In this document: one piece after another, positions 11,659 to 47,543 of the stretch
Position numbering within the stretch: the stretch's first letter is position 1
Layout: each line of letters begins with the position of its first letter
From: a virus
Direction: 5' to 3' (one strand)
DNA: 64,000 nt
IMG/VR virus record: IMGVR_UViG_3300017779_000001
Position numbers and translations under genes: made by a program
Notes under the pieces: model-generated
Databases searched by the model: none
What the model was told of the DNA's origin: nothing
What the model saw: the letters and a program-made list of their open reading frames with translations, nothing else

Positions 11659-11879
11659 TGAGTACAATGAAAGAACTAGCAAGAGTACAAGGAGAACAAC
11701 ATCTTTTTAGAGATGAAGAATCAGGTGCTATAATAAGTAATGATAGTCAAACACTTGCAATTTATAAGAAAAGAAAAACAGTGTTTCAAAATCAAATAAA
11801 TGAAATAAATACTCTTAGAGAAGAGATAAATGAAATTAAAGAATTTTTGAGGAATATAACAAATGGCCAAAACAGTTAG
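11658..11879 (+). CDS. small conserved hypothetical protein with C-terminal coiled coil
   Basis: LFRDEESGAIIS...EINTLREEINEIKEFL; start overlaps the upstream stop (TAATG). Confidence 0.65.
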   Translation: MSTMKELARVQGEQHLFRDEESGAIISNDSQTLAIYKKRKTVFQNQINEINTLREEINEIKEFLRNITNGQNS

Positions 11880-14616
11880 TCAACATAGTACACTCGAAGA
11901 GTGGAGACAGTCGTATAACGAACTAGCATCAGATGTTGGGGATATTGGTGGTTTACGTACTCAAGATAAAACTACACTTGTTGATGCAGTAAACGATTTA
12001 AGAGATAGAGAATTCTTTTTCCAAGGATTTATTTACACTGCAACTGGTGGTCAAACAGTATTCGAAGGTGCAGACAGTTCATCCGACCAAAATGAATTAG
12101 AGTTTAGAGACCATAGATTCCTCGTATTCAAAAACGGTGAATTACAACAACTCTCAACAGATTTCACAATATCAAATGTAAATGCAAACGGTAATCACAC
12201 TAGAGTTACACTTACATCGGGTGCAACTAATAATGATATTATCAGAGTGGTTGCATTTACAGGTTCATTCCTTGATGTCGCAGGTCAAGCTGCAGTACAA
12301 ACGTTTTGGACTGAAACATTAGAGAACACAATTTACAATAACAACGATAGTGGTGTTATTATTAATGGTGACATCGGTTCAGTTGTCACAGAATTACAAT
12401 CAGGTTACGTAGTTCAGATAGAAGGTAAAACATTCATCAATGGTGATGTAGACCTTGATACAGGTCATACCCTATCTGCACCTACACTTACAGACAACAC
12501 ACTATCAATTAATCAAGGAAACGTCACAGGGGGTGTCACAGGAGACTTCAGTGGTGATTTCAACGTAGGTAATTTAGATGTCGGTGGTGGTTTCAATTCA
12601 ACAGGAGTATCGATTACATCTACTGGTAACATCAATGCAAACGGTAGTGCAGAGATTGATGGAAACCTAAACGTAGATGGTTTAACAACATTAGATGGAA
12701 CAACAATTGATGGTAATCTAGACCTTAATGGTAATCTAGATGCATCAGGAACAGGACACATCGGTGGTAACTTTGATGTCAATACTGATAAGTTTACAGT
12801 TGCATCAGCAACAGGTAACACTGCAGTAGCAGGAAGATTAGATGTAACTGGTAATCTAGATGTTGATGGTGCAACAACTACAGATGGAATACACAACGTA
12901 GGTTCTTTAAATCAAGATGGAAGTGTGGACATTTCAACTACACTAGAGGTACATGGAGCTGTAGATTTTAACTCTACTCTAACTGTAGATGGTCAATCTA
13001 ATCTCAATGGTCATGTAAACTTGGGTAATGCATCTACTGATACAGTTACATTCAATGGTGTACTTGATAGTGACATCGTTCCCGATGGAGATAGTTCAAG
13101 AGACTTAGGTACAAACAGTGTTAGATTTTCAAATGCATATATCGATACTACAACAGGTAACCTAGTCGGTAATGCAAGTACAGCTACAACTTTAGAAACT
13201 GCAAGAGATATAGGTGGTGTATCCTTTGACGGAAGTGCAAGTATCAATTTGCCTGGCGTCAACCAATCAGGTAATCAGGACACATCAGGAAACGCTGCAA
13301 GTGCAACTGTATTAGAGACTGCAAGAAATATATCAGGTGTATCTTTTGATGGAAGTGCAGACATAGAATTAAATACTTCTCACATTGATGAAAACGTTGC
13401 AAACCTTTATTTTACAAATGCAAGAGCAGATGCAAGAATAACAAATGCTATTGATACAGACAATACTTTTGCAGATGCATCAAACACTTTAGTTCCTTCA
13501 CAGTTAGCAGTCAAATCATACGTTGATTCACAATTAGATTTACAAGACGAACTAAGTGAGATGAGTGGAGACTCAAGTGATATTACAGAACACGCAACAA
13601 CAAATTTATTCTTTACAAATGCAAGAGCAGATGCAAGGATAACAGCTGCAAGTGTTGGAGATTTAAGTGATGTGGACATTACAGGTGTTGCAGCTGGTCA
13701 AGCACTTACATGGAGTGCAAGTAATAATAGGTTCGAACCCACAACACTTGGTAGTTCTACCGACAGTTTTGCAGAAGGGTCATCAAACCTTTACTTCACA
13801 AATGAAAGAGCAAGAGATGCTGTTGCAAGTTTAATAGTAAATTCAAACAGTGTTAGCAATGGTCTTAATGCAACATATAACGATAATGATAATGCTGAAG
13901 GTACATTAGAACTCGATGTTGACCCCGAATATATCAGAGACACAACTGCATCATTCATCACTGGTGGAACACATAGTGGTATCTCATTTACTCACGATGA
14001 TAATAATGATAAATTAAATGCATCTATATCAATAAGTGGTTTTGACACAAATGATTTAAGCGAAGGTGAAACTAATCTTTACTTTACAAATGCAAGAGCA
14101 GATGCTAGAATCGCAGCTGCTAATACAAGTGACTTGTCAGAAGACCCCGATGCAACTGGTTCAAGTGGTACAATGTACTTCACAGACGAAAGAGCTCGTG
14201 ACGCTGCAGCAGCCATGATTACTAGTGGTACACACAGTAACATTACAGTCAATTATAATGACACTGCAAATACACTTTCGTTCTCTGCAGCTGCACAATA
14301 CGCAGACTCAGATGCAAGAGGAGCTTTATCAGGTGGGCCAGGTATTGATTACAATACATCAACTGGTAAAATTTCTGCAGACCTAAATGCAAGTGGTGGA
14401 TTAGAGTTCCATGCAGCTGGTGATGGTGGTGAGATAAGATTGAAATCTTCAGTGGCAGGTAATGGTCTTGCACATAGTAGTGGTGTTCTCTCTATAAATA
14501 CAAGGAAAGGTGTAAAAATAGATTCAGATTTTGTTGAATCAGATTATGAAGTAGTTTCAACAGCACCCTCAAGTGTCAGTGGTACAAACGATGGACATTT
14601 GTGGTATGTGGTGTAA
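11863..14616 (+). CDS. tail fibre-like structural protein
   Basis: N-terminal TLEEWRQSYNEL; Gly/Asn/Asp-rich beta repeats; two GNAxxATxLETARxIxGVSFDGSA units; five (N/T)xYFTxxRA-type repeats; C-terminal DGHLWYVV. Confidence 0.75.
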   Translation: MAKTVSQHSTLEEWRQSYNELASDVGDIGGLRTQDKTTLVDAVNDLRDREFFFQGFIYTATGGQTVFEGADSSSDQNELEFRDHRFLVFKNGELQQLSTDFTISNVNANGNHTRVTLTSGATNNDIIRVVAFTGSFLDVAGQAAVQTFWTETLENTIYNNNDSGVIINGDIGSVVTELQSGYVVQIEGKTFINGDVDLDTGHTLSAPTLTDNTLSINQGNVTGGVTGDFSGDFNVGNLDVGGGFNSTGVSITSTGNINANGSAEIDGNLNVDGLTTLDGTTIDGNLDLNGNLDASGTGHIGGNFDVNTDKFTVASATGNTAVAGRLDVTGNLDVDGATTTDGIHNVGSLNQDGSVDISTTLEVHGAVDFNSTLTVDGQSNLNGHVNLGNASTDTVTFNGVLDSDIVPDGDSSRDLGTNSVRFSNAYIDTTTGNLVGNASTATTLETARDIGGVSFDGSASINLPGVNQSGNQDTSGNAASATVLETARNISGVSFDGSADIELNTSHIDENVANLYFTNARADARITNAIDTDNTFADASNTLVPSQLAVKSYVDSQLDLQDELSEMSGDSSDITEHATTNLFFTNARADARITAASVGDLSDVDITGVAAGQALTWSASNNRFEPTTLGSSTDSFAEGSSNLYFTNERARDAVASLIVNSNSVSNGLNATYNDNDNAEGTLELDVDPEYIRDTTASFITGGTHSGISFTHDDNNDKLNASISISGFDTNDLSEGETNLYFTNARADARIAAANTSDLSEDPDATGSSGTMYFTDERARDAAAAMITSGTHSNITVNYNDTANTLSFSAAAQYADSDARGALSGGPGIDYNTSTGKISADLNASGGLEFHAAGDGGEIRLKSSVAGNGLAHSSGVLSINTRKGVKIDSDFVESDYEVVSTAPSSVSGTNDGHLWYVV

Positions 14617-14639: not shown

Positions 14640-16880
14640 ATGTCAAATGAAACATATATTAATACAGGGACTAGTTTTCAACAACCCTTCAATGATAGAA
14701 GACCTGTACAACAAAGTTACCAATATAACAATCAAGAAAATAGACAGAGACCTGTACAACAAAATTATCAGTACAACAACGTAGAGAATAGACAGAGACC
14801 TGCTAGACAATCGTATCAATACAATAACGTAGAGAACAGACAAAGACCAGCTAGACAGTCATATCAATACAATAACGTAGAGAGCAGACAGAGACCAACA
14901 AGACAGTCTTATCAGTACCATAATAGAGTACAACAAAATACTCAACAAGATTACACTTATCATAATAGGACACAACAACCTAATCAGCAGAACTATACCT
15001 ATCATAATAGAGTAGATAGACAACGTCCTGTACAACAAAATTATCAGTATCATAATAGAGTAAATAGACAAAGACCTGCTCGACAACCTTACACTTATCA
15101 CAACCGTGTTCAACAAGATACTCAGCAAACTTATCAGTATCATAATAGGATTCCAACCACTACTCAACAAGAATACACTTATCACAATCGTGTTCAACAA
15201 AATACTCAACAAACGTATGTGTACCATAATAGAATACAAGAAAGCACTCAGCAAAATTATCAGTACAACAACGTAGAGTCAAAACAAAGACCTGTTAGGA
15301 ATCAAGCACACCAAAATTACATTCATTACATGCAAGTTTATGGGGGTTCAGGAGATACAGCTGCTATTAAGATGGAAACACCATATGGTCAGGTAACTAA
15401 TACGATACCATCTTTTGAGTTCATGGGGTTTCCAATGCAAGAACAACGTACCGTAAGTGGAAGTCAATATACGTTCCAAGCAAGACAAGCATCGGGTAAT
15501 GCACATGAAGGAGACTCATTTAGGGGTGCAATGTTCTTCAGAGGGCCACAGTATAGCTTACAAGGAACTCAGTCACCATACTATGAAGGTGCGGGGCCAC
15601 AGGGAAATCATACAAATTATACACAGTGGGAGATGCAAGGATTTTCTTTTGAGGGACAGTTCCAAAGACAATGGACAGGACGTTTAAGATACACAGGAAA
15701 GAATACTAAGTTTGCAGCTCACATGGAAGCTACTGATACTGTGCAAAACCAAACCGTCCCCAATCCTCAAAGACAAGGACATCCTCAGGGACAGGGGAAT
15801 CAAGGACTTGAATTTCTTTCTCAACATCCAAATAATTCTCAATATGGAATTACAATTACCAGTGGTCAGTATACAAGATTGGGGTGGGAACATGAGGGGT
15901 CATTTAATTCTCAGGTTCAATCACCAGTTAACCCCCGAAATATTCCTCAAACAGCGTTGAGAAATAAAGGAACCTTTGTAAGAGTGAGACCCCGTGGTTA
16001 TGCAAGACAAGAACAATTTACTACAGGTGTTGCTTTAGATTTTGCATCAGTAGCTGCACAAGGTCTTGATTATCAGGTACCTACTGCAAATCTTAATGAT
16101 AAACAACAACCTGCTCAACAAACTTATTCATACCATAATCAATTACCTAGAAGAAGACCCGTTAGAACTCAACGAAACGAAGATTCAGATAGACAAAGAC
16201 CAGTAAGAGTACAAACACTTTCATCTGAAACAAAACGTAGACCAACTACAGTACAACAATTACAACGTGTATCTAGACGAAGACCAGTTAGAAATCAAGT
16301 CAATCAGGCTAATGAACAACAAAGAAATATACAACAAACATATCAGTATAATAATATTGTAACTAAACAACGTCCTGTACAACAAACTTATCCATATAAT
16401 AATGTTGAGACTAGACAAAGACCTGTTAGAAATCAAGTTAATGAAGATGTGACTAGACAAAGACCTGCTAGGGTTGCAGTATTACAAAGAGTTTCTAGAC
16501 AAAAGAATTTGCAACAAACATATTCTTATCACAATCAGGTTCCTAGAAGAAAATCTGTACAACAGACTTATAGTTATCATAACAGAGTAACAAGACAAAA
16601 GAATTTACAACAGACTTATAGTTATCATAATCAGGTTCCAAGACGTAGACCAGTACAACAGACTTATAATTATCATAATCAGGTTCCAAGACGTAGACCA
16701 GTGAGACAACCATTCCCTTCAACAAGACCTATAGGGCCTCTTGCAAAGGTTAAACAAATTTGGATTAATGAAGGTGGAGTGTTAAGAAAAATGGATGAAG
16801 TGTACTTAAATGATAGTGGAACATTGAAAAAGACTCATCAAAGTGTACCAACTTCTCAATTAACAGACCCGAACACTTAA
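14640..16880 (+). CDS. mirror-repeat (RxRP / YxY[HN]N) protein A, putative hairpin fibre with central tip domain
   Basis: 746-aa ORF; two arms of 14/16-aa repeats flank a non-repetitive domain homologous to that of 24074-28222; lies in the fibre gene block. Confidence 0.7.
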   Translation: MSNETYINTGTSFQQPFNDRRPVQQSYQYNNQENRQRPVQQNYQYNNVENRQRPARQSYQYNNVENRQRPARQSYQYNNVESRQRPTRQSYQYHNRVQQNTQQDYTYHNRTQQPNQQNYTYHNRVDRQRPVQQNYQYHNRVNRQRPARQPYTYHNRVQQDTQQTYQYHNRIPTTTQQEYTYHNRVQQNTQQTYVYHNRIQESTQQNYQYNNVESKQRPVRNQAHQNYIHYMQVYGGSGDTAAIKMETPYGQVTNTIPSFEFMGFPMQEQRTVSGSQYTFQARQASGNAHEGDSFRGAMFFRGPQYSLQGTQSPYYEGAGPQGNHTNYTQWEMQGFSFEGQFQRQWTGRLRYTGKNTKFAAHMEATDTVQNQTVPNPQRQGHPQGQGNQGLEFLSQHPNNSQYGITITSGQYTRLGWEHEGSFNSQVQSPVNPRNIPQTALRNKGTFVRVRPRGYARQEQFTTGVALDFASVAAQGLDYQVPTANLNDKQQPAQQTYSYHNQLPRRRPVRTQRNEDSDRQRPVRVQTLSSETKRRPTTVQQLQRVSRRRPVRNQVNQANEQQRNIQQTYQYNNIVTKQRPVQQTYPYNNVETRQRPVRNQVNEDVTRQRPARVAVLQRVSRQKNLQQTYSYHNQVPRRKSVQQTYSYHNRVTRQKNLQQTYSYHNQVPRRRPVQQTYNYHNQVPRRRPVRQPFPSTRPIGPLAKVKQIWINEGGVLRKMDEVYLNDSGTLKKTHQSVPTSQLTDPNT
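14718..15305 (+). repeat. N-arm coding repeats of protein A (42/48-nt units)
   Basis: unit lengths in aa, anchored on YxY[HN]N: 16,16,16,16,14,14,16,16,14,14,14,14,(16). Confidence 0.9.
16101..16688 (+). repeat. C-arm coding repeats of protein A
   Basis: unit lengths in aa, anchored on RxRP-like motif: 16,14,14,14,14,16,16,14,14,16,16,16,16. Confidence 0.9.
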
Positions 16881-20094: not shown

Positions 20095-20107
20095 GGAGGA
20101 TTAGAAC

Positions 20108-20518
20108 ATGGCAAAATCAAATGCATTTAAATTAGCTGAACTAATCCGTGGGATTCAATTCGATGTTGACAATGATAAAATTGTTACAGCGAAAAAAGTT
20201 GAAACCAAAAATACTAAGAGAGAGTCATCTACGACAACATCGACAGATGCATTCTCATTAGATACCTTTGCAAAAGCAACCTACAGGGCTGCAAGATATA
20301 TTGTAGTAATGTCTAAAGGTACGGATTACCATTCTACAGAAGTTATGTTAGTACATGATGGTACTACAGTTACTTTAACTCAGTACGGTACATTGAAGTC
20401 AACACCGTTAGCTACATTTGACGCAGATATTTCGGGAGATGACGTAAGATTACGTGTGACCCCAGCATCAAATGCTAGTACAACGTTCAAATTTGACAGA
20501 ACAGTAGTAGACGCGTAA
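20108..20518 (+). CDS. structural protein (beta-sandwich domain paralogous to neighbours)
   Basis: LDTFAKATYRAARY...EVMLVHDGTTV...QYG; SD AGGAGG. Confidence 0.65.
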   Translation: MAKSNAFKLAELIRGIQFDVDNDKIVTAKKVETKNTKRESSTTTSTDAFSLDTFAKATYRAARYIVVMSKGTDYHSTEVMLVHDGTTVTLTQYGTLKSTPLATFDADISGDDVRLRVTPASNASTTFKFDRTVVDA

Positions 20519-20536
20519 CAGTTCAGAGAACTAATT

Positions 20537-20565
20537 AAGGGGGAACTTAGGTTCCCCTTTTTTTT
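20537..20565 (+). terminator. intrinsic terminator
   Basis: GGGGAAC-TTAG-GTTCCCC stem-loop followed by T8. Confidence 0.9.
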
Positions 20566-20618
20566 GCCCTTACAAAATGCATAAATAGTATTAGATTCAA
20601 CATTATGGATTATATTAA

Positions 20619-21365
20619 ATGGGAATAAAGAAGAAATTTTTAGCAGACTACGGTGAAGAAATACATGGTGACTTAGATGTTACTGGAGATGTTTCTGTGT
20701 CAGGTGGTTTGACAATATTAGGAACAACGACTACTATAGATTCGGTTACCAAATCGGTTGATACATCTATGTTTGAACTTGCTAATGCAAATACATCCCA
20801 AGACTTGATTGACTTTGGTATATACGGTAACTATAATGACGGTCTATCAGATGGAGGTGCAAGTGAGTTTTCAGGTTTGTTTAGAGATGCAACTGATTCC
20901 ACATGGAAATTATTTGATGGACTAGAAATAGAACCGACAACAACAGTAGACACTGAAGGAACTGGATGGTCTTTTGCAGACCTAAAGGTAGGTGATTTAG
21001 AATCGACAGGAACATTAACTGCAGTAGGGCCACTCAACTTACAGAATTTAAGAATGGATGCAAACAATACATTGACTACTACTGCAACAGATGAGGTAGA
21101 ACTAGATAGTTTTCCATTGTTATCATATAGAAGTGGAAAATATCATGTACAAGCTTCACAAGGAACAAATTTTCATGCATGTGAAATTATGGTAATACAT
21201 GATTCATCAAGTGCATCACACCAAGTGTATGGAAGTGTAACCACAAATGGAGAGTTGTTTACAACATCAGTAGATACAAATTCAGGAGATGTCAGAGTCA
21301 AAGTTACACCATCATCATCGAGTTCAACAGTATTCAAAATAAGTAGAAATTTATTAACAGTATGA
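20619..21365 (+). CDS. fibre-associated structural protein
   Basis: LTILGTTTTIDS and GLFRDATDSTWKLF fibre motifs plus the C-terminal domain shared with 20108-20518; CATAAATA late-promoter variant at 20580. Confidence 0.65.
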   Translation: MGIKKKFLADYGEEIHGDLDVTGDVSVSGGLTILGTTTTIDSVTKSVDTSMFELANANTSQDLIDFGIYGNYNDGLSDGGASEFSGLFRDATDSTWKLFDGLEIEPTTTVDTEGTGWSFADLKVGDLESTGTLTAVGPLNLQNLRMDANNTLTTTATDEVELDSFPLLSYRSGKYHVQASQGTNFHACEIMVIHDSSSASHQVYGSVTTNGELFTTSVDTNSGDVRVKVTPSSSSSTVFKISRNLLTV

Positions 21366-21420
21366 TAACCTTTAGGGGATTGGTTCTCCTAAATACATTC
21401 ATACAAACAGGGGATTTTTA

Positions 21421-21756
21421 ATGGCAACAGCAAACTTTACAATCGATTATGGTTTGACAGTTGGTTCATCTGAAGTAATCACATCTAGTGGTAAAGTAGT
21501 GGCAGCTGCAGTATCAACTTTGACAACTGATAATTTAACACAGGGGTCGACAAATCTGTATTTTACAGGTTCACAGTTTAATACATCTTTTGCTTCTAAA
21601 GACACAGACGATTTATCAGAAGGGTCATCAAACCTTTACTTCACAGATACTAGAGCGAGAGGTTCTATATCTTTAGCATCAGGTGAAACCAATTTATCTT
21701 ATAACAGCACAAGTGGTGAACTATCATTACCAACAGTTGATGGAGGTACATTCTAA
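21421..21756 (+). CDS. small fibre-associated protein ending in VDGGTF
   Basis: two NLYFT repeats and C-terminal DGGTF. Confidence 0.65.
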   Translation: MATANFTIDYGLTVGSSEVITSSGKVVAAAVSTLTTDNLTQGSTNLYFTGSQFNTSFASKDTDDLSEGSSNLYFTDTRARGSISLASGETNLSYNSTSGELSLPTVDGGTF

Positions 21757-24059
21757 TGGCAGGTGAAAAGAATTTTAACGTCAAGAATGGTCTATCGGTT
21801 GCTGGAACAGAAGTCATTCAAACAGATGGAACTTATGTAGGTTCCATTTCTGCAACTGCACTTAACGAAAGTGTAGACGATAGAGTTGCAAACCTCTTAC
21901 AAGCAGGAGCTGGTATTGGATTATCATACGATGATGCAAATAACCAATTAACAATCACAGGTAATGTTGGTGATATCACTGGTGTTAACGCAGGTGCTGG
22001 TTTAACAGGTACTGCAACTTCAGGTGATGCAACATTAAACATTGGTGCTGGTACAGGTATTACTGTAAATGCAGATGACATTGCAATCAACTTTAAAGAC
22101 GAAGACAACATGTCTTCAAACAGTGCAATACACGCTGCAACACAACAATCAATTAAAGCATATGTAGATTCCCAAGTATCAAGTAAAGACAACACAGACG
22201 AAATTACAGAAGGAAGTTCAAACCTCTACTATACAAATGAAAGAGTAGATGACAGAGTAAGTTCATTACTTACCGAAGGAAGTGGTATATCATTAACATA
22301 TGATGATACAGCTAACACACTTACAGTTGCAAATACAAACTCTGCAGATATTACAGCAGTAACAGCAGGAAATGGTTTGACTGGTGGTGGAACTTCAGGT
22401 GCAGTGTCACTTGCAGTTCAAGTTGATGACAGTTCATTAGAACTTGCATCAGATACAGTTCAAGTAAAAGCAGGTGGTATCACTAATGATATGTTAGCAG
22501 GTTCTATTGTAAATGGAAAACTTGCAAACAATTCAATATCAGTTAACTCAACTTCCGTATCCCTTGGTGGTTCTGTTACTTTAGACACTGGTGATATTTC
22601 AGAAAATGGAAATCTATACCATACATCAGAAAGAGTTGACGATAGAGTCAATGCATTAATTACTGCTGGTACCAATATAACAACATCATATGATGATGCA
22701 GCTGGTACACTTACAATTAACTCTTCAGGTAAAACACAAGAACAAATAGAAGACATCGTAAATGGTTTAGTAGTTGGTGGAACAAACATCACTTCTACAT
22801 ACGATGATACAAATGGTACACTTACACTTGCTGGTTTATCAAATGGAGATATCAGAGGTTTATTATCTGCAACTGGAGATTTATCATACAACAGTACTAC
22901 AGGTGCATTCTCATTCACAGAAAGAACAAATGCAGAAGTAAGAGGTTTATTCTCAGCAGGTGGTGACTTAGCATACAACAGCACAACAGGTGCATTTAGT
23001 GTAACAAAATTCACAACTGCAAATGCAAGAAGTTCAATTTCAGCAGGTGGTGATTTAGCATACAATTCAAGTACTGGTGTTATCTCATACAGTGAACCTA
23101 CAATGTATGCAGACTCAGATGCAAGAGGAGCTATATCAGTAACAGACTCAGGTGGAGACGGTTCACTTGCATATAATTCTTCTACTGGTGTTATCACATA
23201 CACAGGCCCAAGTGCATCAGAAGTTCGAGCTCATCTAAGTGCTGGAACTGGTGTTGGATTCTCAGGTGGTGCATTTAGTATCGGTCAGGCAGTCGCAACA
23301 AACAGTAATGTAACATTTGCAGATGTAAATGCAAGTGGTGATTTAGTAGTCACAGGTGACTTAACAGTTAATGGGTCAACAGTTACCAACAGTGCATCAA
23401 ATACAACAATCGAAGATGCATTGATTGAACTTGGTTCAGGTAACACAGGTTCAAACTCTAATGACTTAGGTCTTATCCTCGAAAGAGGTTCAACTGGTGA
23501 TAATGTATTCATGGGTTGGGACGAAAGTTCAGATAGAGTTAGATTTGCAACTACAACAGCAACAGGTTCATCCAGTGGTGCATTAACACTTACTAATGCA
23601 AACATACAAGCAGGAAGACTTTACGGTGCTGTTACAGGTAACGTAACTGGTAATGCAGACACAGCTTCTGCATGGGCAGATGCAAGAACTATCTCTTTAG
23701 GTGGTGACCTTACAGGTTCCGTATCTATAGATGGTAGTGCAAACGCAACACTTAATGCAACAGTTGGTTCAAATGCAGTTGCATTAGGTTCAAACACAAC
23801 AGGAAATTACGTATCAGGAATATCAGGAACCTCAAATGAGATTACAATCTCAGGTTCAGGTAGTGAAAATGCAACAGTAACAATAGGTCTACCCGATGAT
23901 GTAACTATCGGTGATGCATTATCAGTTACTGGTAAAGGTACTACAGATTTTACAACAATCGGTAGTTCAGACGGAGCATTTAGAAATACTTTCATACATT
24001 CAGCAGGCCCATCAGGAAGTGATGGACAAGTCGGTGATGTATGGATAACTTACTCATAA
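21756..24059 (+). CDS. tail fibre-like protein
   Basis: KNFNVKNGLSV start; repeated VDDRVxxL..GxxI...YDD and GDLAYNSTTG units; C-terminal GSDGQVGDVWITYS. Confidence 0.75.
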   Translation: MAGEKNFNVKNGLSVAGTEVIQTDGTYVGSISATALNESVDDRVANLLQAGAGIGLSYDDANNQLTITGNVGDITGVNAGAGLTGTATSGDATLNIGAGTGITVNADDIAINFKDEDNMSSNSAIHAATQQSIKAYVDSQVSSKDNTDEITEGSSNLYYTNERVDDRVSSLLTEGSGISLTYDDTANTLTVANTNSADITAVTAGNGLTGGGTSGAVSLAVQVDDSSLELASDTVQVKAGGITNDMLAGSIVNGKLANNSISVNSTSVSLGGSVTLDTGDISENGNLYHTSERVDDRVNALITAGTNITTSYDDAAGTLTINSSGKTQEQIEDIVNGLVVGGTNITSTYDDTNGTLTLAGLSNGDIRGLLSATGDLSYNSTTGAFSFTERTNAEVRGLFSAGGDLAYNSTTGAFSVTKFTTANARSSISAGGDLAYNSSTGVISYSEPTMYADSDARGAISVTDSGGDGSLAYNSSTGVITYTGPSASEVRAHLSAGTGVGFSGGAFSIGQAVATNSNVTFADVNASGDLVVTGDLTVNGSTVTNSASNTTIEDALIELGSGNTGSNSNDLGLILERGSTGDNVFMGWDESSDRVRFATTTATGSSSGALTLTNANIQAGRLYGAVTGNVTGNADTASAWADARTISLGGDLTGSVSIDGSANATLNATVGSNAVALGSNTTGNYVSGISGTSNEITISGSGSENATVTIGLPDDVTIGDALSVTGKGTTDFTTIGSSDGAFRNTFIHSAGPSGSDGQVGDVWITYS

Positions 24060-24073: not shown

Positions 24074-27000
24074 ATGGCGCAACGAATAAAGAACCCTACG
24101 GGGTGGGTAAACACAACAGGAAGCTGGGTAAAAACATCTCCAACTGAATGGTCGGCAGTAGATTCTATCTATTCAAAGACACCTACTGGGTGGGTAAAGT
24201 CATCAGGACAAATGCCAGCTCAAGTAGTTGCAACAAGACCAGCAGTTGGGACAAGACCTTACAACTTCCAACAATCTTATCAATTCACTGTGCAACAGTC
24301 GTATCAGTATCATAATAGGGTACAGGCATCTACACAACAGTCATATCAGTATCATAACAGGGTTCAAACAAGTGTTCAACAAGATTACACTTATCACAAC
24401 CGTGTTCAACAAAATACTCAACAGACATATACCTATCATAATAGAGTACAAAGAAGAAGACCAGTACAACAAGCATATACCTATCATAATAGAGTACCTA
24501 GACGTAGACCAGTACAACAGACTTATAGTTATCACAATCAGGTACCAAGACGTAGACCAGTACAACAGACGTACGTCTATCATAATCAGGTACCAAGACG
24601 TAGACCTACACAACAATCATATCAATACCATAATAGAGTTGGTAGACAACGTGTAGTACAACAGGGTTATACTTATCACAATAGAGGACAAGCTTCTACC
24701 CAACAGACTTACCAGTATCATAACAGAGTTCAAACAAGTACTCAACAACCTTACACTTATCATAATAGGGTACCTAGAAGAAGACCTGTACAACAGTCGT
24801 ATCAGTACCATAATAGAGTACAAAGAAGAAGACCTGTTCAACAGACGTATACCTATCATCATAGAATACCAAGACGTAGACCAGTACAACAGGCATACAC
24901 TTATCACAATAGGATACAAACAAGTACTCAACAGGCATACACTTATCACAATAGGGTACCTAGAAGAAGACCAGTCCAACAGGCATACCAGTACCACAAT
25001 AGGGTGCAGAGAAGAAGACCTGTTCAACAGTCGTATCAGTACCATAATAGAGTACCTAGAAGAAGACCAGTACAACAAGGGTATACTTATCATAATAGAG
25101 GACAAGCATCAACTCAACAGACTTATCAATATCATAACAGAGTTCAAGCTTCTACTCAACAGAGTTACCAGTATCATAATAGGGTTCAGACTAGTGTACA
25201 ACAATCATACCAATACCATAATAGAGTACAGGTAAGTACACAACAGAATTACCAGTACAACAATACTGAATCAAGAAGAAGACCTGTACAACAAAGTTAC
25301 CAGTACAACAATCAAGAGTCTAGAAGAAGACCAGTACAACAGGTATACCAGTATCATAATCAGGTACCTAGAAGAAGACCTGTACAACAGACGTATACCT
25401 ATCATAATCAGGTACCAAGACGTAGACCTGTACAACAAAGTTACCAGTACAATAATCAAGAGACAAGACGTAGACCAGCACAACAGTCTTATACGTATCA
25501 TAATAGACTTCAAGCTAGGTATAGTTACCAACAACCTTATAGTTATCACAATCAGGTACCAAGACGTAGACCTGTGCAACAAGCATACACTTATCATAAT
25601 CAGGTTCCAAGACGTAGACCAGTTCAACAGTCTTATCAGTACAATAATCAAGAGTCAAGACGTAGACCAGTTCAACAGTCTTATCAGTACAATAATCAAG
25701 AGCCAAGACGTAGACCAACACAACAGTCTTATCAGTTTAACCAACCTACACCTAGAAGAAGACCTGTACAACAAACATACCAGTTTAACCAACCTACATC
25801 TAGGACAAGACAGACTACAGTAAGGAATAGCGCACACACAGCTTACATCCATTATGGAAATATCTATGGTGGTGGTGGTGATACATCTGTTATTAAGGTA
25901 GAAACTCCATACGGACAAAGAACTTCCTATATACCATCTTTTGAGTTCTCGGGTTTCCCAATGAATGCTCAGAATACAGGTACTGCAAGTCCATTTGGTT
26001 TTGCAGGAAGACCTGATGGAAAAGGACATGAAAGAGATTCCTTTAGAGGAAACATGATGTTCAGAGGGCCTTCGTTACAAATGTCAGGTACGCAATCACC
26101 ATTCTTTACTGGTAGTGGCCCACAAAACCAATCAACATCACCGAAGAGTTGGCACTATAGAAGTTACTTTGGTGGACAAAGACAGTGGCAGGGTGTGTTA
26201 AGATTTGTTGGTGCGAACATGGAATTTGGTGCTGATTTCGTTGCAGGGCCAGCTGCTCAATCTGTTCAAAGTATACCTAACCCACAGAGACAAGGTTCAA
26301 TACCTATTACAGGACAAGCACCAACTAATTCTCAATATGGTGCAAAAATAACGAGTGGACAGACTGCAACATTTAAATGGTCACAAGATGGTCAGATGCA
26401 GTCACAATCACCCGGCGGTGGAGGTGGAGGATTCCCACTATTTGTCAGAAACAAAGGTGATGTATTCGTTAGAAGTAGAGATTTGTCTCATGTTCACCAA
26501 GTAACTTTCAGTAATAGTGCTGGTGTGACATGGCCTCAAGGTCAGATGAACGAGATGCAACAGCCTGGTCAACAGAACCAACCGTACACTTATCATAATA
26601 GGGTACAAAGACGTAGACCAACACAACAACCGTACACTTATCATAATAGGGTACCTAGAAGAAGACCAGTACAACAGGCATACACTTATCATAATCAGGT
26701 ACCTAGAAGAAGACCTGTGCAACAAGCGTACACTTATCATAATCAGGTACCAAGACGTAGACCTGTACAACAAAGTTACCAGTACAACAATCAAGAGTCT
26801 AGAAGAAGACCAGTACAACAAAGTTACCAGTACAATAATACTGAGACTAGGAGAAGACCTGCTAGGTCAGACTATCGAGTCAACCAACCTACTCCTAGAA
26901 GAAGACCAGTACAACAGACGTATACCTATCATAATAGAATACCGAGACGTAGACCAGTGCAACAATCTTATCAGTACAATAATACTGAGACTAGAAGAAG

Positions 27001-28222
27001 ACCAGTGCAATCGTCTTATCAGTACAATAATACTGAATCTAGAAGAAGACCAGTTCAACAGACGTATACTTATCATAATAGAATACCAAGACGTAGACCT
27101 GTACAACAAAGTTATCAGTATCATAATCAGGTACCTAGAAGAAGACCAACTAGAGTACAAACATTACAGAGGGTGTCAAGACAGAGACCAGCAAGAGTAC
27201 AAGCTTTACAACGTGTATCAAGACGTAGACCAACAAGAGTACAACAGTTGCAACGTGTCTCTAGACAAAGACCAGCAAGAGTACAGGTTAACATTCAAGA
27301 AACAAGAAGAAGACCTGTACAACAAAGTTACCAGTACAATAATATTGTAACTAGACAACGTCCTGTACAACAAGGTTATCAATATAATAATATTGAGTCT
27401 AGAAGAAGACCAGTGCAACAGGGTTATCAATATAATAATACTGAGACTAGAAGAAGACCAACTAGAGTACAGGTGAACCAACCTTCTCCTAGAAGAAGAC
27501 CTGTTCAACAGAGTTATCAGTATAATAGTACTGAGAACAGACAGAGACCAGTACAACAAGGTTATCAGTATAATAATATTGAGACTAGACAACGTCCTGT
27601 ACAACAAGGTTACCAGTATAATAATGTTGAGACTAGAAGAAGACCAGCAAGAGTACAACAGTTGCAACGTGTTTCTAGACAAAGACCTGCTAGAGTTCAG
27701 GTAAATATACAAGAAACTAGAAGAAGACCAGCACAGCAAACTTATCAGTACAATAATATTGTAACTAGACAACGTCCAACACAACAGAATTATCAATATA
27801 ATAATACTGAAAATAGACAGAGACCAGTGCAACAAGGTTACCAGTATAATAATACTGAAAACAGACAAAGACCAGTGCAACAGGGTTATCAATATAATAA
27901 TATTGAGTCTAGAAGAAGACCAGTGCAACAGGGTTATCAATATAATAATATTGAGTCTAGACAAAGACCAGCAAGAGTTCAGGTTCTACAGAATGTAACT
28001 AGACAAAGACCTGCTAGAACACAGGTATTGCAGAGAGTTTCAAGACAGAGACCTACTAGGGTACAGGTATTGCAAAGAGTTTCAAGACAGAGACCAGCAC
28101 AGTCATCCCGTCAGAAGGTTACAGTTGGTATACAACCATATGCATATCAACAACCGTATAGAAATACAGTTCAGAAATGGGATGGTACAACGTCTTGGCC
28201 TGCACAACCAATATCCTCTTAA
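24074..28222 (+). CDS. mirror-repeat (RRRP / YxY[HN]N) protein B, putative long hairpin fibre with central tip domain
   Basis: 1382-aa ORF; two 492-aa repeat arms flank a roughly 260-aa unique domain; Trp-rich N-terminal cap. Confidence 0.7.
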   Translation: MAQRIKNPTGWVNTTGSWVKTSPTEWSAVDSIYSKTPTGWVKSSGQMPAQVVATRPAVGTRPYNFQQSYQFTVQQSYQYHNRVQASTQQSYQYHNRVQTSVQQDYTYHNRVQQNTQQTYTYHNRVQRRRPVQQAYTYHNRVPRRRPVQQTYSYHNQVPRRRPVQQTYVYHNQVPRRRPTQQSYQYHNRVGRQRVVQQGYTYHNRGQASTQQTYQYHNRVQTSTQQPYTYHNRVPRRRPVQQSYQYHNRVQRRRPVQQTYTYHHRIPRRRPVQQAYTYHNRIQTSTQQAYTYHNRVPRRRPVQQAYQYHNRVQRRRPVQQSYQYHNRVPRRRPVQQGYTYHNRGQASTQQTYQYHNRVQASTQQSYQYHNRVQTSVQQSYQYHNRVQVSTQQNYQYNNTESRRRPVQQSYQYNNQESRRRPVQQVYQYHNQVPRRRPVQQTYTYHNQVPRRRPVQQSYQYNNQETRRRPAQQSYTYHNRLQARYSYQQPYSYHNQVPRRRPVQQAYTYHNQVPRRRPVQQSYQYNNQESRRRPVQQSYQYNNQEPRRRPTQQSYQFNQPTPRRRPVQQTYQFNQPTSRTRQTTVRNSAHTAYIHYGNIYGGGGDTSVIKVETPYGQRTSYIPSFEFSGFPMNAQNTGTASPFGFAGRPDGKGHERDSFRGNMMFRGPSLQMSGTQSPFFTGSGPQNQSTSPKSWHYRSYFGGQRQWQGVLRFVGANMEFGADFVAGPAAQSVQSIPNPQRQGSIPITGQAPTNSQYGAKITSGQTATFKWSQDGQMQSQSPGGGGGGFPLFVRNKGDVFVRSRDLSHVHQVTFSNSAGVTWPQGQMNEMQQPGQQNQPYTYHNRVQRRRPTQQPYTYHNRVPRRRPVQQAYTYHNQVPRRRPVQQAYTYHNQVPRRRPVQQSYQYNNQESRRRPVQQSYQYNNTETRRRPARSDYRVNQPTPRRRPVQQTYTYHNRIPRRRPVQQSYQYNNTETRRRPVQSSYQYNNTESRRRPVQQTYTYHNRIPRRRPVQQSYQYHNQVPRRRPTRVQTLQRVSRQRPARVQALQRVSRRRPTRVQQLQRVSRQRPARVQVNIQETRRRPVQQSYQYNNIVTRQRPVQQGYQYNNIESRRRPVQQGYQYNNTETRRRPTRVQVNQPSPRRRPVQQSYQYNSTENRQRPVQQGYQYNNIETRQRPVQQGYQYNNVETRRRPARVQQLQRVSRQRPARVQVNIQETRRRPAQQTYQYNNIVTRQRPTQQNYQYNNTENRQRPVQQGYQYNNTENRQRPVQQGYQYNNIESRRRPVQQGYQYNNIESRQRPARVQVLQNVTRQRPARTQVLQRVSRQRPTRVQVLQRVSRQRPAQSSRQKVTVGIQPYAYQQPYRNTVQKWDGTTSWPAQPISS
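24302..25777 (+). repeat. N-arm coding repeats of protein B (32 units)
   Basis: 10 units of 14 aa and 22 units of 16 aa, anchored on YxY[HN]N. Confidence 0.9.
26609..28084 (+). repeat. C-arm coding repeats of protein B (32 units)
   Basis: 10 units of 14 aa and 22 units of 16 aa, anchored on RxRP; identical total length (1476 nt) to the N arm. Confidence 0.9.
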
Positions 28223-28241
28223 ATAAAAGGACTAAATATTA

Positions 28242-28270
28242 TTGACTAAAACATGATTAGATGTTATAAT
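28242..28270 (+). promoter_or_regulatory. sigma70-like promoter
   Basis: TTGACT-17 nt-TATAAT, 8 nt before the ATG at 28279. Confidence 0.65.
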
Positions 28271-28278: not shown

Positions 28279-29733
28279 ATGAAGTATATTGATTTACCCG
28301 ACCCAGTGAGTGTGAAAAGTTCTTTCAACGACCATCTTGGTGGATTGAATAAAACAAAACCCAAGAAAGAAGTGATGATTAAAATCAAAGAAAAGTTTGA
28401 TGAAATCTCACGTATATACAAACCTAAAATAGTTTCACTTGGTGACTTGCACAAAAAGTATGGTGTAAGTTACCAAGAAGACTCCTCACATAAAATTAGG
28501 GATTTCTTTCGTGCATTACAAGTTGGAGAAGCAGCTGTTGATGCAGAAGACTTTGAAAGAATAAATGGTGATGAGAACTCTTCTCGTCTCTATCATGCAA
28601 CTAAATTACATTTCTTAATTCAAGATATCCGAGACAAAGGAATTGAATACGGCCCTCAAGGTGTATTGTATTGGCCTCCTACTGCAGATGCAGATGAGAT
28701 TAGATACTTTGTACATCCCGGCACTGGAAGATATTCTGCAATCAAATATTTACAAAAATGGGATACTGAGTGTTTGGTATGGGATGCATATGACGTATGT
28801 TATGACCATAAACCAATGTCTTACTCTGAATGGATAGTTCACACTTTTAAAAATAATCTATATCCCGATATGAATCATGTGTCTTATTGTTGGAATCAAG
28901 GTATCATAGAAGCACACCAAAATAGAGACATGAGAGGTGACTATACTGAAGCAAATGACTACTTACATTATACACTATTCAATGGTGAGATACCAACTAT
29001 ATACGTTGGATATGATGGTAGACATGGTGAAGTTTCAGATGTTTGTATAAAGAGTATACAACATTCTATTGAAAGATACAATAACAAAATGGGAGACTTA
29101 TCAAGTGTTCCGTGGAATGCATTCGTTAATATTAAAAAACTTGACGTTTCAAAGATTCCCGAGTATACTAGAGAGTATGCAAACCAATCAACAGAGTTTA
29201 CGTATAGTAGATTCATGATACCATACTTAGAGAAATATCAAGGTGTCAGTATGTTTGTGGATGATGACTTTATCTTCACAGAAGATATGTTACACTTATT
29301 TTATTCACTAGGACATACTGATTCCGTTGCATGTTTCCATCATGACTTTTCTGATAAAGGTATTACAGAAAAATTAGGTGGAGAAAAGAATGTATGGTAT
29401 CCTAAAAAACTATGGTCAAGTCTTATGATATTTAACAACGGTCATAAGGATTGTAGAAAACTAACACCCGAGGTGGTAAACACACAATCGGGTCAATATC
29501 TACATCAATTTAAATGGACAGATAATGTAGTCAAACTTCAAGACGATTGTTGTTGGACTGAAGGTTACTCTGATGAACCATATAACGTAAAGAAACATAG
29601 AATGATTCATTACACAAATGGGGGCCCATGGATTGAAAACTTCAATGATAGTGTTCAACAAATTGGTAGATATAATTATTATAAAAATCTCGTAGAGATT
29701 GACAACAAAAAGGTGAAAGAAAATGGCAAATAG
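28279..29733 (+). CDS. GT-A glycosyltransferase fused to an N-terminal ParB/Srx-like domain
   Basis: C-half IYVGYD, STEFTYSRFMIPYL, FVDDDF (DxD), KKLWSSLMIFN, HYTNGGPW; N-half LIQDIRDKG...YFVHPGTGRYSA resembles the ParB/Srx core (weaker call). Confidence 0.7.
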   Translation: MKYIDLPDPVSVKSSFNDHLGGLNKTKPKKEVMIKIKEKFDEISRIYKPKIVSLGDLHKKYGVSYQEDSSHKIRDFFRALQVGEAAVDAEDFERINGDENSSRLYHATKLHFLIQDIRDKGIEYGPQGVLYWPPTADADEIRYFVHPGTGRYSAIKYLQKWDTECLVWDAYDVCYDHKPMSYSEWIVHTFKNNLYPDMNHVSYCWNQGIIEAHQNRDMRGDYTEANDYLHYTLFNGEIPTIYVGYDGRHGEVSDVCIKSIQHSIERYNNKMGDLSSVPWNAFVNIKKLDVSKIPEYTREYANQSTEFTYSRFMIPYLEKYQGVSMFVDDDFIFTEDMLHLFYSLGHTDSVACFHHDFSDKGITEKLGGEKNVWYPKKLWSSLMIFNNGHKDCRKLTPEVVNTQSGQYLHQFKWTDNVVKLQDDCCWTEGYSDEPYNVKKHRMIHYTNGGPWIENFNDSVQQIGRYNYYKNLVEIDNKKVKENGK

Positions 29734-30289
29734 AGCTTTAATATATGATGCAACTAATACGTTAGTTATTATCAAAGAAACAGGGTTAAGAATTGTTTAT
29801 CAAAATGTAGACAAACCCGAATTAGGTTTCGAATACGAAGGACTCGTATACGACCAAGATGAATTCAAAATCTTAGAAGTAAATCCATCTAATTGGGATG
29901 CATCGGAAAAACTTCCGTTAACTGATTCAGACAGAGATAAGATTGAAAAATTTATCGATGATGCAGAAGCACCCGATGGTACAAACCTAAACAACCAATA
30001 CATCGATGATTTGTATGATGTTGTTTCAAAAAATGTATATCAATTATGTGTTGAAATGAGAATTGAAAATCTATATGAAGCTACATACATTGGTAGAGAA
30101 GATTCAAATCATCCTTTTAGGTCAGATGCACGAAGAGTGTTAGAATTTGCAGATAGTTCTTACAGTGTACTAGAACAAGTTTGTAGTTCTCTAAGTAGAA
30201 CCCGAGAAGACCAACTTAAAGACTTTGAAGATTATTGTGATGACTTGTTGCAGTTACCACCTGTACAACAATTCCAAGGTCAGCAGTAA
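29723..30289 (+). CDS. hypothetical protein, C-terminus resembles tail fibre assembly proteins
   Basis: IENLYEATYIG...HPFRSDARRVLEFADSSY pattern. Confidence 0.45.
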   Translation: MANRALIYDATNTLVIIKETGLRIVYQNVDKPELGFEYEGLVYDQDEFKILEVNPSNWDASEKLPLTDSDRDKIEKFIDDAEAPDGTNLNNQYIDDLYDVVSKNVYQLCVEMRIENLYEATYIGREDSNHPFRSDARRVLEFADSSYSVLEQVCSSLSRTREDQLKDFEDYCDDLLQLPPVQQFQGQQ

Positions 30290-30292: not shown

Positions 30293-30982
30293 ATGGAAGT
30301 TGTATATCTAGATAAACCCTTTAAGATACAGAAATTCCCCTTAGATAAAATCTATGTCTTAGACGATTGGGTAACATACGAAATCATGTATAACATGAGG
30401 AGACTAACCTCAAGAACTATATGGGCTCAAAACAATCAGGTAAATAGAAACGGTAAGATACGTCATCTGTTTTGGGGTGCAACATTCTATGAGGGCAAAG
30501 ATAAAAAAATTAGAGACCATACTTATCATATGCAAGACACCTATCTTATCAGATATCTAGATTGGAAACTTCAATCAGAGTTTGGTTTTAGATGGGAAAA
30601 ATTTCAGTATGCTGGTATGAATGGTCAGACCACTGGTCTTCAAGGGACTATACACGAAGATAGTTCTCCTGAAAATACAACTAATATATCTTTCTTATGG
30701 TACAACACTGAGTATTGGGAAAAAGAATGGGGTGGCCCACTTAAATTTTATAACGAAGAAGCAAAACATATAGATGGTTATAAAGAAGAGTATTTAAAAC
30801 ATCAGATTGCACAGGTTGATTATAAACCAAATAGATTACTAATGTTTGATGGGAGTATACCACACAATGCAGATGCTCCAAATGATGCATGTGAATATGC
30901 ATGTAGACAGTCTCTAGTTATACGAGGTGATGCATGTCGACTAGAGAATGAATTAGATTATTATGCCAACGATAGAATTTAA
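30293..30982 (+). CDS. 2OG-Fe(II) oxygenase
   Basis: HED (HxD), WxxEWGGPLKF, KPNRLLMFDGSIPH, distal R. Confidence 0.8.
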   Translation: MEVVYLDKPFKIQKFPLDKIYVLDDWVTYEIMYNMRRLTSRTIWAQNNQVNRNGKIRHLFWGATFYEGKDKKIRDHTYHMQDTYLIRYLDWKLQSEFGFRWEKFQYAGMNGQTTGLQGTIHEDSSPENTTNISFLWYNTEYWEKEWGGPLKFYNEEAKHIDGYKEEYLKHQIAQVDYKPNRLLMFDGSIPHNADAPNDACEYACRQSLVIRGDACRLENELDYYANDRI

Positions 30983-31838
30983 CACAACAAACGAAAAAGC
31001 ATTTAAAGAATATCGTCCTGTAGTTGCAAAACATATACATCCTAATTGGTGGAAAGAGATGAGTGTTTCAGCTAATGGACGAGACAATATTAAGATGTGT
31101 CCTTCAATGTTAGATGTGTTGGGTAGTGGTTACTACATTACATGTGTTGAAGATATTAAAATAGAATACCCTAAAAATGATTTAGATGGTTCACCCAAAT
31201 ATGAACTGGGACAATTTGCAAAGTGTCCACACAATCCTAATTATGAAACTACTGGTCACCCTAGAGAACAATTCCCTAACTTCGAGTATGCAAAGGCAGA
31301 TGTAGAAGAAAATCTAGAAAAAAATAATGCAGTCAAAATTAGAGTTCCATGGAGTGTAACAACACCATTGGGTTATTCTTGTTTATATCTAGACCCATTT
31401 CTATTTCAAAATAGATTCTTTCAGACTTGGCAGGGGGTTATGGACACCGATAAATATACAGGTGGAGACTTAAATGGTTTAATTATTCTGTATCCTAAGA
31501 CAAGAGAAGAGTTTGTTATTCCAGCAGGAACACCTATAGCACAGATAGTTCCATATAGAAGAGAGTCGTGGAAAGCTAGTATCGATTTGATTAGTACCGA
31601 ACAATATCAAAAAGACCATGATGCATTTCTATATCATAAGTTTGCAACAGATGATTCAACACCCTTTAAGAAAGGTGGTGGAATAGAAAAGAAATGGGTT
31701 CCAAAATCACCACTCTTTGAAAAGGATATTTTTGACCCATTCAATATTATTCCGACTGAAGAAGAACTTGAACAAGAAAGAAAAATATCAAAAGAAGTTA
31801 GGAATGCAAAATCTCTAAGAGAGAAAATTGAGGATTAA
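30963..31838 (+). CDS. conserved hypothetical protein, often found beside phage oxygenases (possible dUTPase-like fold)
   Basis: IKMCPSMLDVLGSGYYI, PWSVTTPLGYSCLY, GVMDTD, IPAGTPIAQIVPYRRE. Confidence 0.5.
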   Translation: MPTIEFNTTNEKAFKEYRPVVAKHIHPNWWKEMSVSANGRDNIKMCPSMLDVLGSGYYITCVEDIKIEYPKNDLDGSPKYELGQFAKCPHNPNYETTGHPREQFPNFEYAKADVEENLEKNNAVKIRVPWSVTTPLGYSCLYLDPFLFQNRFFQTWQGVMDTDKYTGGDLNGLIILYPKTREEFVIPAGTPIAQIVPYRRESWKASIDLISTEQYQKDHDAFLYHKFATDDSTPFKKGGGIEKKWVPKSPLFEKDIFDPFNIIPTEEELEQERKISKEVRNAKSLREKIED

Positions 31839-31841: not shown

Positions 31842-32594
31842 ATGGCAGTAGAATTACTATTCCCAAACTATGTTTTTCATAGACAACTAACCGCTGAAAA
31901 CTTACACGACAGACAGGGTGTATCTTTTGACTATCTACAGTCGTTGAAAGATGAAATGGATGGAATGAGAGCTAGAGATGAAGGTAGGTCGGTATCTAAC
32001 AGAAATGGATGGCAATCTAATGATGGGTGTGAATCAAATCCTAGATTTCAAAAATTGATGAATAGAATTATACGTATGTTTGATGATGAAGTCTTACCCT
32101 TCTATGGGTTTAACAAAGGAGATGTCAGTGTACAGATTGGTAATTCTTGGGCAAACATTAATGGTCACATGTGTTGGAACTCTCCTCACTTACATAATGG
32201 TTGTTGGTATAGTGGAGTGTTTTATATACATGCAGACGGTGACGAGGGAGATATTGATTTCATAGACACAGATGAAAAAGTGGTACACGACATGCCACCA
32301 TCACCCATGATACAGATGTCATCACATCAACAACCGACTACAGGTAAATTGATATTGTTCCCAAGTGGTTTGATGCATATGGTAGAACCCAACATGACAC
32401 AGAAAGAGAGATACAGTATATCCTTTAACATCAATTATCAGATGAACAATCAAATAAAGATTGGTGAGTCATTATCAAATAGATATTATCCATGGATATT
32501 TGAATTAGACCAAGAGGGGTATCCCTTAAATTATCAAGATATAACTGGAAATATGCCACCACTCGAACCCCTTGAGGACGATACGATTACCTAA
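31842..32594 (+). CDS. putative 2OG-Fe(II) oxygenase, TIGR02466-like
   Basis: SNRNGWQS, SWANIN, HLH..SGVFYI, LILFPSGLMHMVEPN, RYSISFN. Confidence 0.8.
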   Translation: MAVELLFPNYVFHRQLTAENLHDRQGVSFDYLQSLKDEMDGMRARDEGRSVSNRNGWQSNDGCESNPRFQKLMNRIIRMFDDEVLPFYGFNKGDVSVQIGNSWANINGHMCWNSPHLHNGCWYSGVFYIHADGDEGDIDFIDTDEKVVHDMPPSPMIQMSSHQQPTTGKLILFPSGLMHMVEPNMTQKERYSISFNINYQMNNQIKIGESLSNRYYPWIFELDQEGYPLNYQDITGNMPPLEPLEDDTIT

Positions 32595-47542: not shown

Positions 47543-47543
47543 A

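What the first reader, a model, noticed from the sequence alone, without database searches (positions are those of the whole stretch)
24074..28222. Protein B: two 492-aa arms are unit-for-unit mirror complements (32 of 32 pairs) around a central domain
SEEN: parsing the N arm (24302-25777) on YxY[HN]N gives unit lengths 14x3,16x5,14x2,16x3,14,16x3,14x4,16x11. Parsing the C arm (26609-28084) on RxRP gives 16x11,14x4,16x3,14,16x3,14x2,16x5,14x3, the exact reverse; both arms are 1476 nt. Paired units are complementary rather than identical. Every Tyr-type 14-mer (YQYHNRVQASTQQS) faces an Arg-type 14-mer (RQRPARVQxLQRVS), and every His-type 16-mer (YTYHNQVP) faces a His-free 16-mer (mostly YQYNNxE[ST]) whichever arm it is on. 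The single RRRP-less N 16-mer (YTYHNRLQARYSYQQP, unit 27) faces the single YxY-less C 16-mer (RRRPARSDYRVNQPTP). A naive chance for the 14/16 order alone is 1/C(32,10), about 1.6e-8, ignoring clustering. One antiparallel register (i with 20-i in 16-mers) puts YxY opposite RxR. INFERENCE: the chain folds back as a very long two-stranded beta-ribbon zipped by Tyr-Arg cation-pi pairs, about 160 nm if fully extended, with the central domain at the tip. KNOWN: the T4 gp37 needle is a fold-back antiparallel fibre, but I know of no description of a modular complementary repeat code on this scale.
Basis: partly seen in the sequence, partly recalled or inferred. Interest (0 to 1): 0.95.

Follow-up and report, generated by a model that had tools for sequence, protein, structure and literature searches.

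The report
Mirror-coded fold-back phage fibre protein
A marine phage gene encodes a protein whose two long repeat arms match each other unit by unit in reverse order, and 55 of 60 distinct related phage loci keep exactly the same match when the arms are made by two separate genes, so the arms most likely zip together into a long thin fibre held in register by a pairing code that I could not find described.

Summary
Observation confirmed: both arms are 492 aa and 32/32 units mirror each other in length and type (0 of 10^6 block shuffles). It is neither an assembly artefact nor a DNA palindrome. The gene lies in the fibre block of an uncultured marine T4-like myovirus. A paralogue in the window and fused orthologues with re-ordered modules keep the mirror. 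Most relatives carry the two arms as two separate genes. In 55 of 60 distinct pairs the best antiparallel register is gapless and at the same offset; indels are matched across the two genes; covariation peaks on the anti-diagonal with +/-2 side peaks; anchor-proline spacings are even. Best reading: a two-stranded antiparallel beta-ribbon extension docked on a trimeric fibre, with module order fixing register, length and partner. This scan has noted the same design on other phage DNA; I found no paper describing it.

The parts
24074..28222 (+). Protein B, 1382 aa, single-chain (fused) mirror-arm protein
24074..24211 (+). N-terminal module with three short Trp-bearing hairpin-like repeats; putative docking module for the upstream fibre (inferred). 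Homologous to the start of gene 1 in two-gene relatives
24212..24301 (+). Base of the stalk, already mirror-paired with the C-terminal segment in the family register
24302..25777 (+). N arm, 32 units of 14/16 aa (492 aa)
25778..26608 (+). Central 277-aa region containing the turn/tip domain; 45% identical to the centre of protein A; no NCBIfam or PDB match, and no Pfam or PHROG match over it in the whole-protein scans
26609..28084 (+). C arm, 32 units in exactly reversed, complementary order (492 aa)
28085..28222 (+). C-terminal segment with two conserved Trp; homologous to the end of gene 2 in two-gene relatives
14640..16880 (+). Protein A, 746-aa paralogue: same dialect, different module order, 199 gapless mirror columns (arms about 14700-15296 and 16119-16715), docking-like hairpins split between N and C ends
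21756..24059 (+). Upstream fibre-like structural protein (phrog_697) ending in a G[DH]xW motif; likely carrier of protein B (inferred). The motif ends the upstream gene in 60 of 61 related loci
11863..14616 (+). Fibre-like protein ending in a G[DH]xW motif directly before protein A
28231..28238 (+). Late-promoter-like [AC]TAAATA before the cassette; present within 75 nt after the last arm gene in 57 of 59 relatives
28279..29733 (+). Cassette gene 1: C-terminal half resembles annotated phage glycosyltransferases (31-35% identity)
29723..30289 (+). Cassette gene 2, 188 aa, no family match
30293..30982 (+). Cassette gene 3, 2OG-Fe(II) oxygenase (PF13640)
30963..31838 (+). Cassette gene 4, phrog_7084, unknown function
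31842..32594 (+). Cassette gene 5, 2OG-Fe(II) oxygenase (PF13759, TIGR02466)

Best explanation
Protein B is a thin virion fibre extension. Its N arm runs out, the central domain forms the turn and distal tip, and the C arm runs back, pairing residue by residue as one long two-stranded antiparallel beta-ribbon (at most about 160-175 nm). The ribbon is built from a small alphabet of even-length modules, each accepting only its complementary module, so module order fixes register, length and partner. N and C termini meet at the base. There three Trp-bearing hairpins probably dock one copy of the ribbon on the three-fold end of the upstream trimeric fibre, in the manner of T-even gp38 on gp37. In most relatives the same ribbon is a heterodimer of two gene products. 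SHOWN from sequence: mirror complementarity, its conservation through module re-ordering and matched indels, its operation across two genes, orthogonality of the A and B pairs, fixed gene context. INFERRED: physical contact, beta conformation, 1:1 stoichiometry, virion location, role in reaching or catching the host, and modification by the linked oxygenases and glycosyltransferase.
For: Fused orthologue L001 has a remodelled inner third, with 14-mers of swapped polarity, and keeps 53/53. L007 has a different order, a new 6-mer module pair and a divergent centre, yet folds back over 464 columns with one 1-residue bulge under a matrix learnt from protein B alone. Two-gene form: 559 gapless columns, MI 1.79 against median 0.53, parallel best 0.95. 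55 of 60 dereplicated pairs, gene 2 of 202-562 aa, peak at the identical offset from conserved Trp anchors; arm lengths r=0.98 in 30 pairs. Net indels are equal in the two genes of close relatives: -18/-18, +2/+2, -16/-16, -24/-24 aa. APC-corrected covariation over 55 phages: 0.31 on the anti-diagonal, 0.20/0.22 at +/-2, 0.16/0.13 at +/-1, at most 0.02 on parallel diagonals. The twelve commonest anchor-Pro spacings are all even (6, 8, 10, 14, 18...). In six phages with both pairs, cognate scores are +158 to +368 and cross scores -9 to -229. The locus lies between baseplate and neck genes, with T4-type late promoter motifs enriched.
Against: No structural support: AlphaFold2 mean pLDDT 35.5 (protein A alone) and 33.8 (19-row alignment of an in-frame gene pair). 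The second model coils arm 1 on itself at pLDDT 40-49. Five of 60 pairs deviate, and several fused copies lack units in one arm only. Most of those have a balanced near-identical sibling and break at 29-53 nt exact repeats in k-mer assemblies, but L085, P0003 and P0004 are not explained that way. A free two-stranded ribbon of 500 residues with net charge about +17 per 100 aa has no precedent known to me. Module swaps alone create a covariation band, so the +/-2 pattern is suggestive only. No virion proteomics or cultured host.
Confidence: 0.55

Rival explanations
1. Three hairpins (or three heterodimers) wind into a six-stranded needle like the T4 gp37 tip, with the one His per rung from each chain binding a metal ion on the axis.
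For: In all fused B and A proteins checked, one His falls every 14-16 (rarely 18) residues along the axis, supplied by either arm. Phage fibres are usually trimers, and gp37 has His-bound iron along its needle (PMC6957217).
Against: The arms have no HxH pair. Two-gene relatives are mostly His-poor: median 0.4%, 30 of 55 below 0.5%. The three-hairpin terminal module suggests a pseudo-three-fold monomer (inference). No sequence match to gp37 or any PDB chain.
Confidence: 0.2
2. The arms pair antiparallel, but the two-stranded ribbon is coiled or kinked at each proline into a double-stranded helix or solenoid, so the rod is much shorter and thicker than 160 nm.
For: A proline every 6-10 residues interrupts strands. 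Anti-diagonal covariation cannot tell straight from coiled. The low-confidence model favours coiling.
Against: Module lengths vary freely (6, 8, 10, 14, 16, 18) in any order, which a regular solenoid would not tolerate. No consistent i to i+turn period across the family.
Confidence: 0.14
3. In the fused protein the pairing is between chains (N arm of one copy with C arm of another), giving antiparallel dimers or polymers with central domains apart.
For: Two-gene relatives show that pairing works in trans; sequence cannot separate cis from trans pairing.
Against: The mirror runs right up to the central domain, and in the fused L174 protein up to a centre of about 60-70 residues. Both termini carry the base modules, which fits a hairpin.
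Confidence: 0.06
4. The protein is not an external fibre but a polycationic nucleic-acid-binding or internal virion/cell scaffold.
For: 211 Arg, net charge +186; no tail-fibre family match.
Against: Invariant position after a G[DH]xW fibre gene (60/61); variable tips; relatives have less than half the charge (median +7 per 100 aa).
Confidence: 0.04
5. The mirror is a by-product of DNA inversion, a single symmetric duplication, or misassembly.
For: Repeat genes do collapse in some assemblies.
Against: 33% identity to the reverse complement and no synonymous-site congruence between arms; complementary rather than identical units; dozens of different orders each mirrored.
Confidence: 0.01

Closest known systems
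T4 gp37 long-tail-fibre needle (D11; PMC6957217, PMC7291167)
   Same: Phage fibre end in which antiparallel beta strands form an elongated needle with a distal receptor-binding tip; His spaced along the axis in the fused clade.
   Different: The solved gp37 fragment covers about 230 residues and is a homotrimer with seven iron sites; it is not built from a shuffled module alphabet and is not split across two genes. No sequence similarity; most relatives here lack His.
Streptococcal antigen I/II (SpaP) stalk (PMC7732690)
   Same: One chain whose N-side and C-side repeat regions intertwine into a long stalk (over 50 nm) carrying a central domain at the tip; N and C ends meet at the base. Closest in logic.
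   Different: AgI/II pairs an Ala-rich region with a Pro-rich region, each arm of one fixed type (helix with polyproline II, from my own knowledge). Here either arm can carry either module, order is combinatorial, and pairing also works between two genes.
T-even gp38 adhesin on gp37 (phage S16; PMC6851490)
   Same: Model for the base: one chain docks on a trimeric fibre end through three Trp in three equivalent pockets.
   Different: gp38 uses a helical bundle and has no long stalk; the module here looks like beta hairpins. Docking was not tested.
Bovine ultralong CDR-H3 beta-ribbon stalk and knob (PMC8602281, title and abstract only)
   Same: Two-stranded stalk presenting a variable knob.
   Different: The whole loop is some 50-plus residues, non-repetitive; about ten times shorter per arm.
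SMC/Rad50 antiparallel coiled-coil arms (own knowledge)
   Same: About 50-nm intramolecular fold-back with matched arm lengths around a central domain.
   Different: Alpha-helical heptads, no module code, unrelated function.

Membership tests
T4 gp37-type needle | Sequence or profile similarity to gp37/Stf tip | tested here: not met
   No PHROG, NCBIfam or PDB match; only a sub-threshold compositional Pfam hit, PF08017
T4 gp37-type needle | Paired His (HxH) metal sites along the needle | tested here: not met
   No HxH in the arms; single His per rung; most relatives His-poor
T4 gp37-type needle | Chain runs out and back, antiparallel, around a tip | tested here: met
   At sequence and covariation level only
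T4 gp37-type needle | Homotrimer, six-stranded | not testable with these tools
   Complex prediction unavailable
T4 gp37-type needle | Fold similarity | tested here: inconclusive
   Only low-confidence models; best Z 5.7 to unrelated solenoids
Antigen I/II stalk | Ala-rich A region paired with Pro-rich P region; IgG-like C domains and LPXTG anchor | tested here: not met
   Both arms use the same Gln/Arg/Tyr alphabet; no such domains found
Antigen I/II stalk | Flanking repeat regions pair and project a central domain | tested here: met
   Works-like only, from sequence
gp38-type adhesin | Encoded directly after its trimeric fibre, N-terminal three-Trp docking module | tested here: inconclusive
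   Position and Trp repeats fit; no family match; binding untested
Mirror-coded two-gene fibre family of marine T4-like phages (undescribed; found here and in earlier scan notes) | Homologous terminal modules, same locus, same five-gene cassette, register predicted by the family matrix | tested here: met
   Invariant Trp/Gly/Pro in both termini; cassette in 41/41 loci; the family matrix ranks the homologous register first in protein B, although absolute scores are negative because the repeat dialect differs

The most novel reading that the evidence does not exclude
A natural protein analogue of base pairing: a small alphabet of even-length peptide modules with strict complements, whose order programs the register, length and partner of a two-stranded beta-ribbon of up to about 170 nm, usable in cis (hairpin) or in trans (two genes), with two orthogonal barcodes in one virion and a dedicated modification cassette.
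Probability: 0.6. Interest if true: 0.95.

Novelty: categorically new. Interest (0 to 1): 0.86.

Why it matters
It would be a new fibrous-protein architecture, widespread in uncultured marine T4-like phages and invisible to Pfam, PHROGs, the PDB and AlphaFold2. It suggests how these phages could reach sparse hosts with length-tunable appendages and swappable tips. It also supplies hundreds of natural cognate and non-cognate pairs, which makes sequence-programmed beta-strand recognition directly testable and offers a design rule for orthogonal protein zippers and rulers. Protein B is the longest single-chain member I found and uses a different dialect, so the principle survives a change of alphabet.

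Tried and rejected
Homologue searches with protein B: the centre found nothing of near length, the N arm only P0007; no cultured phage match; hits of a relative to Pseudomonas/Vibrio phages were partial and not followed. ESM Atlas scores at most 0.80, uninformative. No RNA holder listed. Simultaneous co-duplication of both arms: no congruence of synonymous sites (within-class rho 0.04, p=0.65), so it is unsupported, though saturation or gene conversion could hide it. Stop-codon readthrough joining split genes: rejected, most in-frame gaps hold several stops and many are out of frame. Short apparent fusions L212 and L253 were set aside as probable chimeric contigs; L018 is a broken copy and was excluded. 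Direction of fusion versus fission: the quick tree of the cassette's first gene puts the fused forms on one long sister branch, unrooted, so undecided. Sigma-70 and terminator scans were at chance level overall. Paper searches found no description; the library lacks most subscription journals.
Full report
Context. The window is part of a T4-like myovirus genome. Baseplate genes lie upstream, and neck gp13/gp14, gp15, terminase, sheath, tube and capsid genes downstream. The major capsid protein is closest to Pelagibacter phages Mosig and HTVC008M and methylophage Melnitz at 63-64%, so the host is unknown. Runs holding the gene are labelled viral or seawater metagenomes. Protein B follows a fibre-like structural gene and precedes five genes: a glycosyltransferase-like gene, two 2OG-Fe(II) oxygenases and two unknowns.

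Observation. The parse reproduces exactly: 32 and 32 units, 492 aa each, reversed order, with one His-bearing unit per rung in 32/32. A single gapless register puts all 55 aromatic pairs opposite all 55 RxR motifs. Run-preserving shuffles never reached 32/32 in a million trials. The arms are not DNA inverted repeats, and other assemblies and runs reproduce the gene.

Single-chain relatives. Protein A in the window shares the central domain (45%) and the code with another order (19/20). L001 has a rebuilt inner third in which Arg-type 14-mers moved to the N arm and their partners to the C arm, still 53/53. L007, with a different order and centre, folds back over 464 columns with one bulge, scored by a matrix from protein B alone. 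L174 is a 531-aa fusion in the other dialect with a short centre. One-arm deletions occur in L008, L019, L022, L028 and P0002. Each has an otherwise near-identical balanced sibling and breaks at 29-53 nt exact repeats, in contigs named k127/k141. I read these as probable assembly collapses, but I could not prove it, and P0003, P0004 and L085 remain real or unexplained exceptions.

The split family. Following the downstream cassette led to phages where the same locus holds two genes: the first begins with protein B's N-terminal module and the second ends with its C-terminal segment. Read antiparallel, they match without gaps over the whole second gene. Of 60 dereplicated pairs, 55 peak at the same offset from conserved Trp anchors although gene 2 ranges from 202 to 562 aa; three are off by one 18-aa unit. 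Each gene 1 scores its own gene 2 far above foreign ones (mean +1.3 against -1.5 per column, where the matrix includes the tested pairs; leave-one-out +1.2 against -0.9). Close relatives show equal net indels in both genes. The A locus is also split in most phages and mirror-matched, and A and B partners do not cross-match within a genome. One locus has the two genes in swapped order (L275). The tip on gene 1 is absent in 23, Hint-like by motif in 22 (Pfam-checked in L066 and L123) and another domain in 15.

What the code looks like. In the split family the dominant pairs are P-Q, P-R, A-Y, N-T and A-F: the [QR]xP anchor pairs with its own reverse, and aromatic residues face small ones. Column covariation peaks on one anti-diagonal with stronger +/-2 than +/-1 neighbours and nothing on parallel diagonals, and anchor spacings are even. 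Both are what an antiparallel beta ladder would leave, though neither proves it. There P-Q, R-Y and Q-R lead and the second Tyr-Arg contact is diagonal. Tyr-Arg stacking and the His ladder are therefore features of this lineage's dialect rather than the principle.

Mechanism. I give in-register antiparallel pairing about 0.93 overall. Within that I prefer a single two-stranded ribbon (0.55) over a gp37-like six-stranded needle (0.2), a coiled double strand (0.14) or inter-chain pairing (0.06). The preference rests on the lack of HxH and of His in most relatives, the free mixing of module lengths, and a base module of three hairpin-like repeats following a G[DH]xW-ending fibre gene in 60 of 61 loci. 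That arrangement recalls a single gp38 on trimeric gp37 (PMC6851490). Virion location is inferred from gene context and late-promoter motifs. The five-gene cassette follows in 41/41 loci with enough sequence, so hydroxylation and glycosylation of the fibre is a reasonable but untested inference. How both arms change together is unresolved: synonymous sites show no shared duplication history, which fits stepwise change with selection for the compensating partner, or an old erased signal.

Comparison and novelty. It works like the antigen I/II stalk (PMC7732690) and the gp37 needle (PMC6957217; PMC7291167) but fails membership in both. No database or paper I could search describes a combinatorial, reversible module code acting in cis or in trans. 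Other agents of this scan reported the two-gene and other fold-back forms on different genomes. I reached the family independently before those look-ups and do not count them as evidence. What this window adds is the longest single-chain member I saw, in a distinct dialect, tied by termini, locus, cassette and register to the split family.

Noticed in passing
window 14640-16880: Paralogue A obeys the same mirror code with a different order; its hairpin-like docking repeats are split, one at the N end and two at the C end.
   Followed up: yes
L066:5095-7023, L123:7659-9983 and about 20 other loci: Gene 1 ends in a Hint/intein-like domain at the tip position, followed by only a few residues; role (self-cleavage, ligation of a tip, chaperone) unknown.
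   Followed up: partly
L038:7682-7939; L058, L059, L069, L086 gaps of 280-530 nt: Where the tip is neither absent nor Hint-like, a small ORF or ORF-sized gap lies between the two arm genes; possibly a tip partner or chaperone.
   Followed up: no
L275:7995-9790: Arm genes in swapped order (gene 2 before gene 1). L274 and L275 are phage-like contigs inside marine MAGs (Verrucomicrobiales, Sphingobacteriales); not reliable host evidence.
   Followed up: partly
window 28242-28270: Near-consensus sigma-70 promoter (11/12, extended -10) between protein B and the cassette, kept in L001, L002 and L007 but found in 1 of 60 split-family loci, next to the conserved late-type motif.
   Followed up: partly
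L007:12313-16152: Near the tip, 6-residue modules appear in complementary form on both arms; a single 17-aa unit forms the only bulge.
   Followed up: partly
L064, L073, L078, L092, L097, L100 and others: Tip-less pairs are often separated by in-frame gaps (9, 18, 21, 33, 39, 48 nt), but with several stops; may be chance or a trace of fusion/fission.
   Followed up: partly
window 17643-21756: Run of small fibre/adaptor genes with repeated terminal motifs (several end in DGGTF, two begin alike) between proteins A and B, conserved in order in relatives.
   Followed up: no
window 47511-48218, 56149-56826: Two further ORFs that look like 2OG-Fe(II) oxygenases by eye, outside the cassette; not run against families.
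   Followed up: no
L047:1-14073: A different viral contig with a related glycosyltransferase inside a cluster that looks by eye like radical-SAM, halogenase and amidinotransferase genes.
   Followed up: no
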